In this document: positions 1,591 through 14,893 of the stretch, piece after piece
Numbering within the stretch: position 1 is the first letter of the stretch
Layout of the letters: every line of letters starts with the position of its first letter
Translations under genes and position numbers: made by a program
Assembly (NCBI RefSeq): GCF_057098645.1
Contig: NZ_CM169472.1
Direction: 5' to 3' (one strand)
Length of the DNA: 64,000 nucleotides
Notes under the pieces: generated by a model
Databases searched by the model: none
Seen by the model: only the letters and a program-made list of their open reading frames with translations
What the model was told of the DNA's origin: nothing

Positions 1591-3234
1591 ATGCGCCAGG
1601 TATTATCGTCTCTTTTGGTGATTGCTGGACTTGTGAATGGTCAGGCAATCGCCGCGCCTGAACCCACCCCGCATGCTGATATCCGCGACAGCGGTTTTGT
1701 CTATTGCGTCAGCGGGCAAGTCAACACCTTTAACCCATCCAAAGCGAGCAGTGGGTTAATTGTCGATACCCTTGCCGCCCAGTTTTATGATCGACTGCTG
1801 GATGTCGATCCGTATACCTATCGTCTGATGCCAGAACTTGCCGAAAGCTGGGAAGTGCTCGACAACGGCGCGACTTATCGCTTCCACCTGCGTCGCGATG
1901 TCCCGTTTCAAAAAACCGCCTGGTTTACTCCCACTCGCAAAATGAATGCCGATGATGTGGTGTTTACCTTCCAACGGATTTTTGACCGCAATAACCCGTG
2001 GCATAACGTCAACGGTAGTAACTTCCCCTATTTCGACAGTCTGCAATTTGCCGATAACGTTAAAAGCGTCCGCAAGCTGGATAATCATACCGTTGAGTTC
2101 CGTCTGGCTCAGCCGGATGCTTCTTTTTTGTGGCACCTCGCAACCCATTATGCTTCGGTCATGTCGGCAGAATATGCCCGGAAGTTAGAGAAAGAAGATC
2201 GCCAGGAGCAACTCGACCGTCAACCGGTCGGCACTGGACCGTATCAGTTGTCGGAATACCGCGCCGGGCAATTTATTCGCCTACAACGTCATGATGACTT
2301 CTGGCGCGGTAAACCGTTAATGCCGCAGGTGGTGGTGGATTTAGGCTCCGGCGGCACCGGACGTCTGTCGAAACTCCTGACCGGGGAATGCGACGTTCTG
2401 GCCTGGCCTGCTGCCAGCCAGCTATCCATTTTGCGTGACGACCCGCGCTTGCGTTTAACGCTGCGTCCTGGGATGAACGTCGCCTATCTGGCATTTAACA
2501 CCGCCAAACCGCCGCTAAATAATCCCGCTGTCCGCCATGCGCTGGCACTGGCGATTAATAACCAGCGCCTGATGCAATCCATCTATTATGGTACGGCTGA
2601 AACGGCGGCCTCTATTTTACCGCGCGCCTCGTGGGCCTATGACAACGAGGCTAAAATTACTGAATACAATCCGGCGAAATCGCGCGAACAGTTGAAGTCG
2701 TTGGGGCTGGAAAATTTAACGCTGAAACTGTGGGTGCCCACACGTTCGCAGGCGTGGAACCCCAGTCCACTGAAAACTGCCGAACTGATTCAGGCGGATA
2801 TGGCGCAGGTTGGCGTAAAAGTGGTGATTGTGCCGGTAGAAGGTCGCTTTCAGGAGGCGCGGTTGATGGATATGAGCCATGATCTGACGTTATCCGGTTG
2901 GGCGACGGACAGTAACGACCCGGACAGTTTCTTCCGTCCGTTACTGAGCTGCGCGGCAATTCATTCACAGACCAACCTCGCCCACTGGTGCGATCCGAAA
3001 TTCGACAGCGTGTTGCGTAAGGCGCTCTCCTCGCAGCAGCTGGCGGCGCGTATTGAAGCCTATGACGAAGCGCAGAGTATTCTGGCGCAGGAATTGCCCA
3101 TTTTGCCGCTGGCGTCGTCATTGCGTTTGCAGGCCTATCGGTACGATATCAAAGGTCTGGTGCTTAGCCCGTTTGGTAACGCCTCCTTTGCTGGGGTGTA
3201 TCGCGAGAAACAGGATGAGGTGAAAAAACCATGA
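1591..3234 (+). CDS. sapA: periplasmic substrate-binding protein of the Sap (peptide/putrescine) ABC transporter
   Basis: 547 aa with signal peptide; first gene of a five-gene ABC operon; recognised as SapA. Confidence 0.9.
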
Positions 3235-12400: not shown

Positions 12401-12580
12401 GTTCTCCAGCGTTTCGGCAGAAGCACCAGTATAAGTGGCTGAAATTTTAATGGTCGGTGGCGCAACGTCAGGATATTGCGCGACGGGCAATGTGCGAATA
12501 GCCAGAATCCCCGCCAACATAATCAAAATGGCGATAACCCAGGCAAAGACCGGGCGGCGAACAAAAAAGCGCGAAAACAT
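9473..12580 (-). CDS. RND (HAE1-type) inner-membrane efflux pump
   Basis: 1035 aa; AcrB-like N-terminus MFSRFFVRRPVFAWVIAILIML; two large periplasmic loops and 12 TM pattern. Confidence 0.9.
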   Translation of the reverse strand: MFSRFFVRRPVFAWVIAILIMLAGILAIRTLPVAQYPDVAPPTIKISATYTGASAETLENSVTQVIEQQLTGLDNLLYFSSTSSSDGSVSINVTFEQGTDPDTAQVQVQNKIQQAESRLPSEVQQTGVTVEKSQSNFLLIAAVYDTTDKASSSDIADWLVSNVQDPLARVEGVGSLQVFGAEYAMRIWLDPAKLASYSLMPSDVQSAIEAQNVQVTAGKIGALPSPNTQQLTATVRAQSRLQTVDQFKNIIVKSQSDGAVVRIKDVARVEMGSEDYTAIGKLNGHPSAGVAVMLSPGANALNTATLVKDKIAEFQRNMPQGYDIAYPKDSTEFIKISVEDVIQTLFEAIVLVVCVMYLFLQNLRATLIPGLAVPVVLLGTFGVLALFGYSINTLTLFAMVLAIGLLVDDAIVVVENVERIMRDEGLPAREATEKSMGEISGALVAIALVLSAVFLPMAFFGGSTGVIYRQFSITIISAMLLSVVVALTLTPALCGSVLQHVPPHKKGFFGAFNRFYRRTEDKYQRGVIYVLRRAARTMGLYLVLGGGMALMMWKLPGSFLPTEDQGEIMVQYTLPAGATAARTAEVNRQIVDWFLINEKANTDVIFTVDGFSFSGSGQNTGMAFVSLKNWSQRKGAENTAQAIALRATKELGTIRDATVFAMTPPAVDGLGQSNGFTFELLANGGTDRETLLQMRNQLIEKANQSPELHSVRANDLPQMPQLQVDIDSNKAVSLGLSLNDVTDTLSSAWGGTYVNDFIDRGRVKKVYIQGDSEFRSAPSDLGKWCVRGSDNAMTPFSAFATTRWLYGPERLVRYNGSAAYEIQGENATGFSSGDAMTKMEELANSLPAGTTWAWSGLSLQEKLASGQALSLYAVSILVVFLCLAALYESWSVPFSVILVIPLGLLGAALAAWMRDLNNDVYFQVALLTTIGLSSKNAILIVEFAEAAVAEGYSLSRAALRAAQTRLRPIILTSLAFIAGVMPLAIATGAGANSRIAIGTGIIGGTLTATLLAIFFVPLFFVLVKRLFAGKPRRQE

Positions 12581-13701
12581 CAGGCGTTGCCTCCATTAGC
12601 CTGAACTTCAACAGCCTTGACCGTCTGCCCTGAAGTGACTTTGGCAGAACCTTCAACAATCAGTCGGTCGCCGTTGTGCAGGCCGTTTAGCACCAGCCAT
12701 TTATCACCATATGTTTCTCCCGTTTCGAGCGTTCGCTGCTCTACTTTATTGTCTTTATTCACCACCAGCGCAGTTGCATTGCCTTTAGCATCGCGCGTGA
12801 CGCCCTGTTGCGGCGCGAGAATAGCGTCTTCCATCACGCCTTCATCGACACGAGCGCCAACAAACATTCCCGGTAATAACTGCTGTTGTGGATTGGGGAA
12901 AATCGCCCGTAATGTCACCGAACCGGTAGACTCATCTACAGCGACTTCGGTGAGTTCCAGACGCCCTTTTTCGCTGTAGGTTGTGCCATCTTCCAGAATA
13001 AGTGAGACGCTCATGGTGTCACTGTTGGTCGCCAGTGACTGTTTACGCAGACGTAATAAATCGACACTGGAGCGAGTGAGGTCGACATACATTGTATCCA
13101 GACCACGAATAGTCGTTAACGCTGTATCTTGCGACGCGGTCACCAGTGCGCCAGGGGTTACCGACGAAATGCCAATGCGCCCTGAAATCGGTGCGGTTAC
13201 CGTGGTCCAGTCAAGATTAATGCGCGCAGTTTCCAGTGCGGCTTTTTTCGCCTCTACACTGGCTTTATCTTGTGCACAGGTAGACTGAGCATCATCAGCA
13301 TCCTGTTGTGAAACACCGTTCTCTTTCACCAGTCGGGCATAACGCTGCGCTTTCTGGCAATCGGCTTTTACCAGTGCCTGTGCTTGTTGTAATGCAGCCC
13401 GAGCTTCATTCCATGCAGCCTGATAACTGGCCGCATCAATCTGGTAGAGCGGCTGTCCAGCCTTGACCAGATCACCTTCCTTAAATAAGCGTTTCTGGAT
13501 AATTCCCCCAACCTGCGGACGTACTTCGGCACTGAGCGCAGCACTGGTGCGTCCGGTTAATTCACTGACTACCGAGACCGGTTGAGATTTGACTGTAACA
13601 ACGCCGACTTCTGTTTCTGACGGGGATGAATTGTCACTTTGCGTATTATCACAACCAGATAAGAGCAGCATTGCCACTACAGATGTTGCTATATACTTCA
13701 T
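12580..13701 (-). CDS. RND periplasmic adaptor (membrane fusion protein), lipoprotein
   Basis: start chosen at MKYIATS (lipobox LLSGC) preceded by GGAG; biotinyl-lipoyl/beta-barrel MFP-like translation; stop overlaps RND start. Confidence 0.8.
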   Translation of the reverse strand: MKYIATSVVAMLLLSGCDNTQSDNSSPSETEVGVVTVKSQPVSVVSELTGRTSAALSAEVRPQVGGIIQKRLFKEGDLVKAGQPLYQIDAASYQAAWNEARAALQQAQALVKADCQKAQRYARLVKENGVSQQDADDAQSTCAQDKASVEAKKAALETARINLDWTTVTAPISGRIGISSVTPGALVTASQDTALTTIRGLDTMYVDLTRSSVDLLRLRKQSLATNSDTMSVSLILEDGTTYSEKGRLELTEVAVDESTGSVTLRAIFPNPQQQLLPGMFVGARVDEGVMEDAILAPQQGVTRDAKGNATALVVNKDNKVEQRTLETGETYGDKWLVLNGLHNGDRLIVEGSAKVTSGQTVKAVEVQANGGNA

Positions 13702-13849
13702 TATTTTCTCCAGGGTGAGAAATACCCTCCTCATTAAAATCAATGAGGATATATCAGGGATATTCAGTTATAACGAACCCGCATCGCGAAATGAATTTCG
13801 CAATGAAATAAGGGGGATTAATATCCCCCGCTATTGGTTAATTCTGTTC

Positions 13850-14416
13850 TTATTTATTTATCAACATACTAACAATATCCTGATATATTTCCTGCAGATG
13901 TTGTGGATCGCTTTTTTGCGGTGTTAAACGACGATAAACCGTACCTTCCATCATGGTAGCAAACACTTCAACGCAGCAACGAATGTGCTCGTCGCTAAGA
14001 TGGGGATGCATTCTTTTCATATGTGCACAACCGTTAGCGAACATTCTGGCGTCAGCTTCTTCAAGCATTGCCATAACCCGCGGGTTGCGTGTGGCTTCTG
14101 CAGCCACTTCCAGCATCAGCGCGTCGTCGTCCTCATTTAAGGATTTACGCAAGGCAAGGACTTCCGGGAAGTGATCGGTACGCGCGTCAATGTCCATTTG
14201 GGCAATACGAAAGTCGATGATACGGCGAACCATCTCTTCAATAATGGCGTCTTTGTTGGCGAAGTAACGATATATCTGACCCACGCTAAGCTGAGCTTCG
14301 CTGGCAATTTGCGACATACTGGCGGCATGAAACCCGCAGCGACGAAAACACCGACGGGCGGCGTTAATGATTTCATCCTGACGCTGTTTGTGGCGTATCT
14401 CCAGCTTGCTGGTCAT
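13850..14416 (-). CDS. TetR-family transcriptional regulator
   Basis: N-terminal HTH (AARRCFRRCGFHAASMSQIASEAQLSVGQIYRYF); start chosen at MTSKLE preceded by AGGAGA; a longer ORF to 14515 is possible. Confidence 0.75.
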   Translation of the reverse strand: MTSKLEIRHKQRQDEIINAARRCFRRCGFHAASMSQIASEAQLSVGQIYRYFANKDAIIEEMVRRIIDFRIAQMDIDARTDHFPEVLALRKSLNEDDDALMLEVAAEATRNPRVMAMLEEADARMFANGCAHMKRMHPHLSDEHIRCCVEVFATMMEGTVYRRLTPQKSDPQHLQEIYQDIVSMLINK

Positions 14417-14893
14417 TTCTGTCTCCTGGCCTATCACTTGGTGAGAATGATCGTTCTCATTTTTGCTGATTATACGTTTCTCCAAAGTAATGGAAAGTAT
14501 TTTTATCTTATTCATGGTGCATATTCTGATAATGAAGAGATTGTGGAGATTCTGTGAAGATAGTTGACAATATTAAGTTGGGGTCAATTCATCAGAAAGG
14601 CTGCTACTTGTTGTCGCCAGTTCTGTTTTCATCATCAAACTTATCGGAGCTAATACGAATAGTTTCATAGTCAGATTCTATAAGATATTTCCCCAACCTA
14701 CCCCTTGCAGGCGTCAAGAGTAGATAACGCAAAATGCTCTGTACCGCAGCTTCTCTCCGGTACAGAAAGCGCAACTATAGCCACCCACAGCCAGGTTGAT
14801 TATAATAACCGTTTATCTGTTCGTACTGTTTACTAAAACGACGAATCGCCTGATTTTCAGGCACAACAAGCATCAACAATAAGGATTAAAGCT

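What the first reader, a model, noticed from the sequence alone, without database searches (positions are those of the whole stretch)
13786..13829. Two palindromes in the tetR-MFP intergenic region: candidate TetR operator(s)
The 148 bp between the regulator and the adaptor gene contains gcgaaat-GA-atttcgc (7 bp arms, 13786-13801) and gggggat-taa-tatccccc (13812-13829). TetR-family repressors typically bind about 15 bp palindromes overlapping the promoter of the pump they control. The second element could instead be the regulator's terminator hairpin.
Basis: seen in the sequence. Interest (0 to 1): 0.35.

Follow-up and report, generated by a model that had tools for sequence, protein, structure and literature searches.

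The report
Conserved RNA hairpins, not repressor sites
The two palindromes between the eefR repressor gene and the eefA pump gene are real, but they are not the repressor's binding sites: they are conserved RNA hairpins, a terminator-like one after eefR and a stem-loop in the pump's leader, while the true operator lies upstream of eefR and is already published.

Summary
The window is an E. coli O145:H28-type chromosome. The locus, on the minus strand, is the known accessory efflux operon eefRABCD between fabI and sapF.

Three perfect inverted repeats with 7-nt arms in 148 nt occurred in 3 of 5000 shuffles.

The operator reading fails on two counts:
- Shen et al. 2025 (PMC12482432) mapped the EefR operator, TGAGAACGATCATTCTCA, upstream of eefR (window 14442-14459).
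- Their "nonspecific" EMSA competitor was this same gap fragment (window 13702-13847, same palindromes). It did not compete.

In 35 loci from about ten genera the exact operator box sits once, just upstream of eefR, and never in the gap.

The gap instead keeps four hairpins on the sense strand:
- 92% of cells are paired, and 25 of 29 pairs changed on both sides.
- G·U pairs outnumber C·A by 107 to 23.
- Loop lengths vary.

Palindrome 2 (13812-13829, with a T-tract) is a terminator-like hairpin 20 nt after the eefR stop. Palindrome 1 (13782-13805) is a 10-bp stem-loop. No Rfam family matches.

My reading is a leaky terminator followed by a structured eefA leader. Termination itself was not measured. 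Interest is modest.

The parts
13812..13829 (-). RNA hairpin GGGGGAU-AUUA-AUCCCCC, starting 20 nt after the eefR stop codon. Terminator-like stem.
   Evidence: Flagged as terminator-like (7 pairs, 5 G-C, loop 4). Folds at -13.0 kcal/mol. Every orthologue has a G+C-rich hairpin at this position with a different stem sequence.
13802..13811 (-). T-rich tail of H1 (UUAUUUCAUU on the RNA).
   Evidence: Orthologues have cleaner tracts, such as TTTTTGTCGTT and TTTTTTCATT.
13782..13805 (-). RNA stem-loop CAUUGCGAAA-UUCA-UUUCGCGAUG: 10 pairs including one U·G.
   Evidence: -10.9 kcal/mol on the sense strand against -7.8 on the antisense. RNAalifold recovers it on a plain MAFFT alignment, with 6 of 9 pairs covarying. 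94.5% of cells are paired and 9 of 10 pairs changed on both sides.
13728..13749 (-).
   Evidence: -10.5 kcal/mol, z = -3.9. 95.4% of cells paired and 8 of 9 pairs changed on both sides.
13713..13727 (-). H4, a short hairpin (GGGU/ACCC in E. coli) just before the Shine-Dalgarno sequence. It lies inside the most conserved block of the gap (..TCGTTCACCCTGGA..).
   Evidence: 4 pairs, 90.9% of cells paired, 3 pairs changed on both sides. The register in E. coli differs slightly from the model's.
13708..13711 (-). Shine-Dalgarno sequence GGAG of eefA; the ATG is at 13701-13699.
   Evidence: The lipoprotein signal MKYIATSVVAMLLLSGC starts at this ATG.
13716..13733 (+). The only EefR-box-like sequence in the gap: TGAGAAATACCCTCCTCA, one mismatch to TGAGAA-N6-TTCTCA. 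Probably a chance match.
   Evidence: The mismatch (TTCTCA to TCCTCA) is the same change as the published single mutant MT-1, which lost the EMSA shift. It is not conserved in other Escherichia.
13850..14416 (-). eefR, a TetR-family repressor of 188 aa.
14442..14459 (-). The experimentally defined EefR operator, TGAGAACGATCATTCTCA.
   Evidence: The exact box is present once, 20-45 nt upstream of eefR, in 35 related loci.
14469..14496 (-). Predicted eefR promoter, TTTCCA-16-TATAAT.
   Evidence: 10 of 12 matches. The same promoter and box are present in K. pneumoniae.
12580..13701 (-). eefA, the periplasmic adaptor of the EefABC RND pump.

Best explanation
The palindromes act as RNA, not as protein-binding DNA.

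1. Published: the whole eefRABCD operon is transcribed from the promoter upstream of eefR. EefR represses it by binding the box at 14442-14459.
2. Inferred: once the polymerase has passed the eefR stop codon, the transcript folds into H1 (13829-13812) followed by a U-rich tail. This is an intrinsic terminator that stops part of the transcripts. It yields a short eefR message and limits how much basal transcription reaches the pump genes.
3. Inferred: polymerases that read through make the eefA leader. These hairpins most likely protect or shape the 5' part of the eefABCD segment, affecting mRNA stability or translation initiation.

Shown here or published: the hairpins exist, they are conserved as structures on the sense strand, they are not EefR boxes, and the operator is elsewhere.

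Inferred only: that H1 really terminates and how leaky it is, and what H2-H4 do.
For: **Not an operator**
- The published operator is upstream of eefR. The gap fragment did not compete in EMSA.
- The primers for that fragment map to 13702-13847. The tested strain has identical palindromes.
- The exact EefR box occurs once per locus, always upstream of eefR and never in the gap, in 35 loci.

**RNA structure**
- Orthologous gaps of 134-155 nt from Escherichia, Raoultella, Enterobacter, Lelliottia, Kluyvera, Pseudocitrobacter, Leclercia, Cedecea, Phytobacter, Dryocola and Citrobacter all fold into the same hairpins with different stem sequences.
- On a plain MAFFT alignment, RNAalifold recovers H2 with 6 of 9 covarying pairs.
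- On the structure-guided alignment, 92.0% of cells are paired and 25 of 29 pairs changed on both sides. The covariation score is 0.468, against 0.237 in shuffles (0 of 500 reach it) and 0.075-0.149 when partners are slid.
- G·U pairs on the sense strand fill 107 cells, against 23 C·A cells. Loop lengths vary.
- Within Escherichia, the two fixed H2 stem differences seen between species or lineages both preserve the stem: one G-C to A-U double change plus a G·U in E. albertii, and one A to G giving G·U in Escherichia sp. MOD1-EC7003 (L003). One E. coli strain (MS20673) has a disruptive A to C change.

**Terminator**
- H1 meets the scan's criteria on the minus strand.
- Every orthologue has a G+C-rich hairpin followed by a T-rich tail about 20 nt after the stop codon.

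**A role for the leader**
- Shen et al. report that the eefA upstream sequences were essential for the phenotype of cloned eefAB, eefABC and eefABCD.
- K. pneumoniae, which has lost eefR, still keeps H1-H4 between the orphan promoter and operator and eefA.
Against: - No 3'-end or read-through data were available, so termination at H1 is a prediction.
- In E. coli the tail (UUAUUUCAUU) is less U-rich than in the orthologues.
- RT-PCR shows transcripts that cross the eefR-eefA junction, and eefA rises 83-fold when eefR is inactivated. H1 therefore cannot be a tight stop.
- The structure-guided alignment is fitted to the model, which favours pairing. The MAFFT-based result covers H2 only.
- The published competition used only 1x and 2x cold fragment (legend), so weak EefR binding is not excluded.
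- The role of H2-H4 in stability or translation is inferred from position alone.
- In a second Klebsiella-like genome (L083), H1 and H2 have decayed while eefA remains. They are therefore dispensable for having a pump gene.
Confidence: 0.72

Rival explanations
1. The four hairpins form a conditional attenuator or leader. In this reading, termination at H1 or access to the eefA ribosome-binding site is switched by a signal, protein or small RNA. The pump would then be gated a second time, independently of EefR.
For: - The whole motif is conserved over many genera with covariation.
- It is kept in K. pneumoniae after loss of eefR, where H1 sits in a 5' leader with no gene to terminate.
- The eefA upstream region is needed for function, and this is unexplained.
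- The pump is cryptic under laboratory conditions.
Against: - I found no conserved alternative (antiterminator) pairing by inspection.
- There is no multi-stem junction or conserved loop of the kind that ligand-binding RNAs have.
- No Rfam match.
- A candidate leader peptide is not conserved.
- The motif has decayed in L083.
Confidence: 0.2
2. Palindrome 1 is the DNA binding site of a different dimeric transcription factor that controls an internal eefA promoter.
For: - The outer parts of the palindrome (CATTTC...GAGATG) are conserved in sequence.
- Shen et al. speculate about native promoter elements or unidentified regulators in the eefA 5' region.
- K. aerogenes eefABC is reported to be silenced by H-NS.
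Against: - The distance between the conserved outer parts varies from 21 to 24 nt, and the inner arms are replaced by unrelated complementary sequences.
- The arms tolerate G·U on the sense strand: 41 G·U cells against 4 C·A cells in H2. That is a mismatch in DNA.
- No promoter-like site is predicted on the sense strand of the gap in E. coli or K. pneumoniae.
Confidence: 0.07
3. The palindromes are weak secondary EefR operators.
For: - The geometry fits: a TetR gene lies directly upstream.
- One box with a single mismatch lies in the gap at 13716-13733.
- The competitor was used only at 1-2x.
Against: - The fragment did not compete, while the specific fragment did at the same dose.
- The palindromes share nothing with TGAGAA-N6-TTCTCA.
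- The one-mismatch box carries the very substitution (MT-1) that abolished binding. It is not conserved.
- The authors' genome-wide MAST search found no second site.
- No box is present in the gap of any of 35 loci.
Confidence: 0.03
4. The palindromes are chance products of an A+T-rich spacer and have no function.
For: A single 7-nt-arm palindrome occurs in about 14% of shuffles.
Against: - Three together occur in 0.06% of shuffles and in no other tile of the window.
- The structure is conserved with compensatory changes across genera whose EefR proteins are only 60-70% identical.
Confidence: 0.03

Closest known systems
EefR operator of the E. coli eefRABCD operon (Shen et al. 2025, Virulence; PMC12482432)
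   Same: It is in the same locus and is also an inverted repeat, and it explains the repression of eefA. The box is present in the window at 14442-14459.
   Different: It lies upstream of eefR, not in the eefR-eefA gap. Its sequence (TGAGAA-N6-TTCTCA) is unrelated to either palindrome. It is conserved as sequence with fixed spacing, whereas the gap palindromes are conserved only as base pairing.
Intrinsic (Rho-independent) terminators and intra-operon attenuators, such as the rplL-rpoB attenuator of E. coli (textbook knowledge, not tested here)
   Same: H1 is a G+C-rich hairpin with a T-tract, located after a stop codon inside a co-transcribed operon. Read-through is documented by RT-PCR.
   Different: Termination efficiency is not measured, and the E. 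coli tail is imperfect. H1 is followed by three further conserved hairpins that a plain terminator does not need.
Intercistronic stabilising stem-loops that set unequal expression within an operon, such as papB-papA, pufBA and the malE-malF REP (from general knowledge)
   Same: These are conserved hairpins between cistrons of one transcript. H1 could protect the 3' end of an upstream segment and H2 the 5' end of a downstream one.
   Different: No processing site or half-life data exist here. The element is single-copy per genome, unlike REP.
CmeR-type arrangement: a TetR gene upstream of the pump genes on the same strand, with the repressor binding an inverted repeat in the intergenic region (Campylobacter cmeR-cmeABC; from memory).
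   Same: The gene order is the same (TetR, adaptor, RND pump) and there is an inverted repeat in the gap.
   Different: In eefRABCD the repressor binds upstream of its own gene and the pump genes are co-transcribed with it.

Membership tests
EefR (TetR-family) operator | Matches the experimentally defined box TGAGAA-N6-TTCTCA | tested here: not met
Neither palindrome resembles the box. The exact box is at 14442-14459.
EefR (TetR-family) operator | Bound specifically by purified EefR | not testable with these tools
   Published: the unlabelled fragment 13702-13847, with identical palindromes in the strain used, did not compete with the operator probe at 1-2x, while the specific probe did.
EefR (TetR-family) operator | Overlaps the promoter of the regulated gene | tested here: not met
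   No sigma-70-like site on the minus strand within 13702-13849. The best promoter in the region, TTTCCA-16-TATAAT, lies directly upstream of the true operator.
EefR (TetR-family) operator | Half-sites and spacing conserved as sequence in orthologous loci | tested here: not met
   The stem sequences are replaced and loop lengths vary. By contrast, the true box is letter-perfect in 35 loci.
Intrinsic (Rho-independent) terminator (palindrome 2 / H1) | G+C-rich stem of 5 or more pairs with a short loop | tested here: met
   7 pairs, 5 of them G-C, loop 4, -13.0 kcal/mol.
Intrinsic (Rho-independent) terminator (palindrome 2 / H1) | U-tract immediately 3' of the stem on the transcribed strand | tested here: met
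   TTATTTCATT passes the scan's criterion of 5 T in 8. Orthologues mostly have 5-8 T in the 10 nt after the called stem; the lower values of 3-4 include cases where the stem call already absorbed part of the tract. The E. coli tract is interrupted.
Intrinsic (Rho-independent) terminator (palindrome 2 / H1) | Lies downstream of a stop codon on the same strand, and is conserved there | tested here: met
   20 nt after the eefR stop codon. A hairpin at the same place is present in all eefR-eefA loci, with 5 of 6 pairs changed on both sides.
Intrinsic (Rho-independent) terminator (palindrome 2 / H1) | RNA 3' ends and reduced downstream transcription in vivo or in vitro | not testable with these tools
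   No 3'-end data were available. The published RT-PCR shows that at least some transcripts read through.
Any described RNA family (Rfam 15) | Match reaching the family's gathering score | tested here: not met
   Best matches are 13-19 bits with E above 1, far below the gathering scores.
Repeated palindromic elements (REP, ERIC) | Many copies per genome | tested here: not met
   The gap sequence occurs once per genome in 2040 E. coli genomes. The covariance model finds one hit in the 64-kb window and one per locus.
Leader-peptide (ribosome-stalling) attenuator | A conserved short ORF preceding the regulated hairpin | tested here: not met
   A short ORF starts at the ATG in GATGCGG in E. coli and Enterobacter. 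No start codon is present there in Kluyvera, Cedecea or Dryocola, and the ORF lies downstream of the terminator-like hairpin.

The most novel reading that the evidence does not exclude
The eefR-eefA spacer may be an undescribed cis-regulatory RNA: a four-hairpin leader, conserved in Enterobacteriaceae, whose terminator (H1) and ribosome-binding-site-proximal hairpins (H3, H4) gate expression of the cryptic EefABC pump in response to a signal, independently of the EefR repressor. This would explain two things. First, the eefA upstream region is required for pump function in clones. Second, K. pneumoniae keeps the leader after losing eefR.
Probability: 0.2. Interest if true: 0.5.

Novelty: new member of a known kind. 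Interest (0 to 1): 0.3.

Why it matters
For annotation, an inverted repeat next to a TetR gene should not be called its operator by default. Here the real operator is upstream of the repressor gene, and the gap palindromes work, if at all, as RNA.

For the eef system, two recent papers disagree on whether EefABC exports drugs. One of them attributes the difference partly to an unexplained need for the native eefA upstream sequence. The conserved hairpin leader described here is a concrete, testable candidate for that requirement, and for keeping the pump silent when the repressor is bound. In itself it is an ordinary kind of element: a terminator followed by a structured leader.

Tried and rejected
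- **Second EefR operator in the gap.** Rejected.
- **Internal sigma-70 promoter overlapping palindrome 1.** My hand candidate, TTCATT-17-TATAAC, scores only 8 of 12. The scan finds nothing on the sense strand, and the -10-like letters are not conserved.
- **Leader peptide** (MRVRYN* in E. coli). The start codon is not conserved.
- **Known RNA family.** None matches.
- **Old tandem duplication** (H2 plus its tail, and H3 plus its tail). The tail similarity is no better than shuffles, median z = 0.49.
- **First covariance model (R1).** It was built on the MAFFT alignment with E. coli registers. It left H3 out of register, at 55% paired. It was replaced by R2, seeded on the Enterobacter and Lelliottia group.
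- **Protein search with E. coli EefA.** The results were saturated with E. coli variants and gave no Klebsiella. Repeating the search with Raoultella EefA worked.
- **Masi et al. 2005** (K. aerogenes eefABC, H-NS). The paper is not held in the library.
- **Nakashima-type K. pneumoniae RND paper** (PMC7331594). It has nothing on the eefA leader.
- **eefR homologues in Erwinia, Pantoea and Serratia.** They are followed directly by a membrane-protein-like reading frame (probably an MFS transporter, not verified) with no hairpin motif, so they are not informative.

Full report
**What the locus is.** The window matches E. coli O145:H28 chromosomes at 100% identity. On the minus strand, between fabI and sapF, lie five genes:
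- a TetR-family gene (188 aa, 14416-13850)
- a 148-nt gap
- an RND adaptor gene (ATG at 13701)
- an RND permease gene
- an outer-membrane factor gene and an MFS transporter gene

This is the accessory operon eefRABCD. Two recent papers describe it: Pugh et al. 2026 (PMC12817139) and Shen et al. 2025 (PMC12482432). In my search it is present in 2043 of 5426 complete E. coli genomes.

**The observation.** Both palindromes are at the stated coordinates.
- The first is really larger: 11-nt arms at 13782-13805 with one mismatch.
- The second splits as 7-4-7.
- A third perfect inverted repeat at 13728-13749 was not reported.
- One such palindrome in 148 nt of this composition is unremarkable (about 14% of shuffles). 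Three occurred in only 3 of 5000 shuffles and in none of the other 432 tiles of the window.
- The sense strand of the gap folds with z = -3.5.

**Why they are not the repressor's operators.**
- Shen et al. showed by EMSA, deletion and point mutants that EefR binds TGAGAACGATCATTCTCA upstream of eefR. They also showed that eefR and eefABCD are co-transcribed and jointly derepressed when eefR is lost.
- That box is in the window at 14442-14459, directly after the best promoter match of the region, TTTCCA-16-TATAAT.
- Their "nonspecific" cold competitor was made with primers that map without mismatch to 13847-13828 and 13702-13722. It is therefore the gap itself.
- The sequence of their strain (Table S5) contains both palindromes letter for letter.
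- The gap fragment did not compete, while the specific fragment did at the same 1-2x dose.
- The only box-like sequence in the gap (13716-13733, one mismatch) carries the same TTCTCA to TCCTCA change as their single mutant MT-1, which lost binding. It is not conserved in other Escherichia.
- In 35 related loci from many genera the exact box occurs once. It always lies 20-45 nt upstream of eefR and never in the gap.

**What they are.**
- *Data set.* I collected eefR loci from one genome per species. About 35 of them have eefA directly downstream, with a gap of 134-155 nt. The EefR proteins are only 60-70% identical to the E. coli protein.
- *Layout.* Every gap folds into the same arrangement on the sense strand:
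  - H1: a G+C-rich hairpin with a T-rich tail about 20 nt after the stop codon
  - H2: a stem-loop of 8-10 bp
  - H3: a stem-loop of 7-9 bp
  - H4: a short hairpin in front of the Shine-Dalgarno sequence
- *Stem sequences differ between genera.* For example, the inner stem of H2 is GCGAAA/TTTCGC in E. coli, TCTGGC/GCCAGA in Enterobacter and TTCCG/CGGAA in Raoultella.
- *Unfitted test.* On a plain MAFFT alignment RNAalifold recovers H2, with 6 of 9 pairs changed on both sides.
- *Structure-guided test.* On a structure-guided alignment (model R2):
  - 92.0% of cells form standard pairs
  - 25 of 29 pairs changed on both sides
  - the covariation score is 0.468, against 0.237 in shuffles (0 of 500 reach it) and 0.075-0.149 when partners are slid by 1-3 columns
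- *Caveat.* That alignment is fitted to the structure, which favours pairing. The slid controls keep relatedness and still fall far below.
- *RNA rather than a DNA site.* Two further features point to RNA on the transcribed strand rather than to a DNA site. G·U pairs on the sense strand fill 107 cells against 23 C·A cells, and loop lengths vary.
- *E. coli H2.* It folds at -10.9 kcal/mol on the sense strand but at -7.8 with an internal mismatch on the other strand.
- *Within Escherichia.* The two fixed H2 stem differences seen between species or lineages both preserve the stem: E. albertii has a G-C to A-U double change plus a G·U, and Escherichia sp. MOD1-EC7003 (L003) has an A to G change giving G·U. 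One E. coli strain (MS20673) has a disruptive A to C change. Most other polymorphism lies in loops and linkers.
- *Known families and copy number.* No Rfam family matches. The element is single-copy per genome.

**How it most likely works.**
- H1 has the anatomy of an intrinsic terminator and lies just beyond the footprint of a ribosome stopped at the eefR stop codon.
- Transcripts crossing the junction exist, and eefA rises 83-fold without EefR. H1 must therefore be leaky.
- I read H1 as an attenuator that gives a short eefR message and damps pump expression from basal transcription.
- H2-H4 belong to the read-through RNA, as the leader of eefA. Shen et al. note, without explanation, that the eefA upstream sequences were essential for the phenotype of cloned eefAB, eefABC and eefABCD. 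Their insert starts inside eefR and contains the whole gap.
- In K. pneumoniae the promoter and a perfect EefR box are still present but eefR is deleted. H1-H4 are nevertheless retained in front of eefA.
- In another Klebsiella-like genome (L083) only half a box remains and H1 and H2 have decayed.
- These points make a function for the leader plausible, but they do not show what it is.
- Termination at H1, its efficiency, and any effect of H2-H4 on stability or translation remain inferences.

**Comparison with what is known.**
- The operator question is already answered in the literature, and the answer is a different site.
- H1 is an ordinary intrinsic-terminator-like element.
- The four-hairpin leader as a conserved unit is described neither in the two eef papers I read nor in Rfam. 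I therefore rate it a new member of a known kind, a structured intercistronic leader or attenuator.
- A signal-responsive attenuator is not excluded, and I give it about 0.2. I found no conserved alternative pairing, no conserved leader peptide and no junction typical of ligand-binding RNAs.

**Verdict.** The operator interpretation is refuted. The first palindrome is a conserved RNA stem-loop. Interest is modest, at 0.3.

Noticed in passing
L082 1745-2000 (K. pneumoniae JAYFKO010000027.1): The eefR promoter (TTTCCA-16-TATAAT) and a perfect EefR box (TGAGAATGATCATTCTCA, 1782-1799) are present, but eefR itself is deleted. About 85 nt later come H1-H4 and eefA. The Klebsiella 'eefABC without eefR' arrangement therefore looks like a deletion derivative of eefRABC with an orphan operator.
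   Followed up: partly
L083 1800-2000 (GCA_023442745.1): This is a more decayed relic of the same kind. Only the -35 hexamer and the left half of the box (TGAGAAT) remain. H1 and H2 carry many mismatches, while H3 and H4 are kept.
   Followed up: partly
L003 about 3078-3200 (Escherichia sp. MOD1-EC7003): A 124-nt insertion lies between the eefR stop codon and H1. It looks like an ERIC/IRU element (recognised from memory). Copies 90-95% identical occur elsewhere in 2760 of 5426 E. coli genomes, for example next to yafQ.
   Followed up: partly
L088 668-1510 (E. coli strain razor3): An IS1 element is inserted directly after H2, with a 9-nt duplication (CGATGCGGG). It separates eefR, H1 and H2 from H3, H4 and eefA, which makes it a natural test strain for the leader.
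   Followed up: no
window 13699-13743, minus strand: An in-frame ATG (13734) and TTG (13743) lie upstream of the eefA start. This explains database versions of EefA with 384, 387 and 392 aa. The lipoprotein signal peptide and the orthologues point to the ATG at 13701.
   Followed up: partly
window 14417-14515, minus strand: The mechanical ORF for the regulator is 221 aa, starting at ATG 14515. That start lies upstream of the promoter's -35 hexamer and of the operator. The annotated and characterised protein is 188 aa, starting at ATG 14416.
   Followed up: yes
L031-L081 (Erwinia, Pantoea, Serratia, Lonsdalea, Brenneria): EefR homologues (48-64% identity) are followed at once by a membrane-protein-like reading frame (probably an MFS transporter; not verified) instead of eefA, with no hairpin spacer. 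In these genera the regulator family seems to be paired with a different transporter.
   Followed up: no
window 13702-13849 compared with other E. coli: Only 27 of 2040 genomes are at least 99% identical to the window in the gap. Most differ at 2-3 positions, which fall mainly in the H3 loop and in the linker between H2 and H3.
   Followed up: partly
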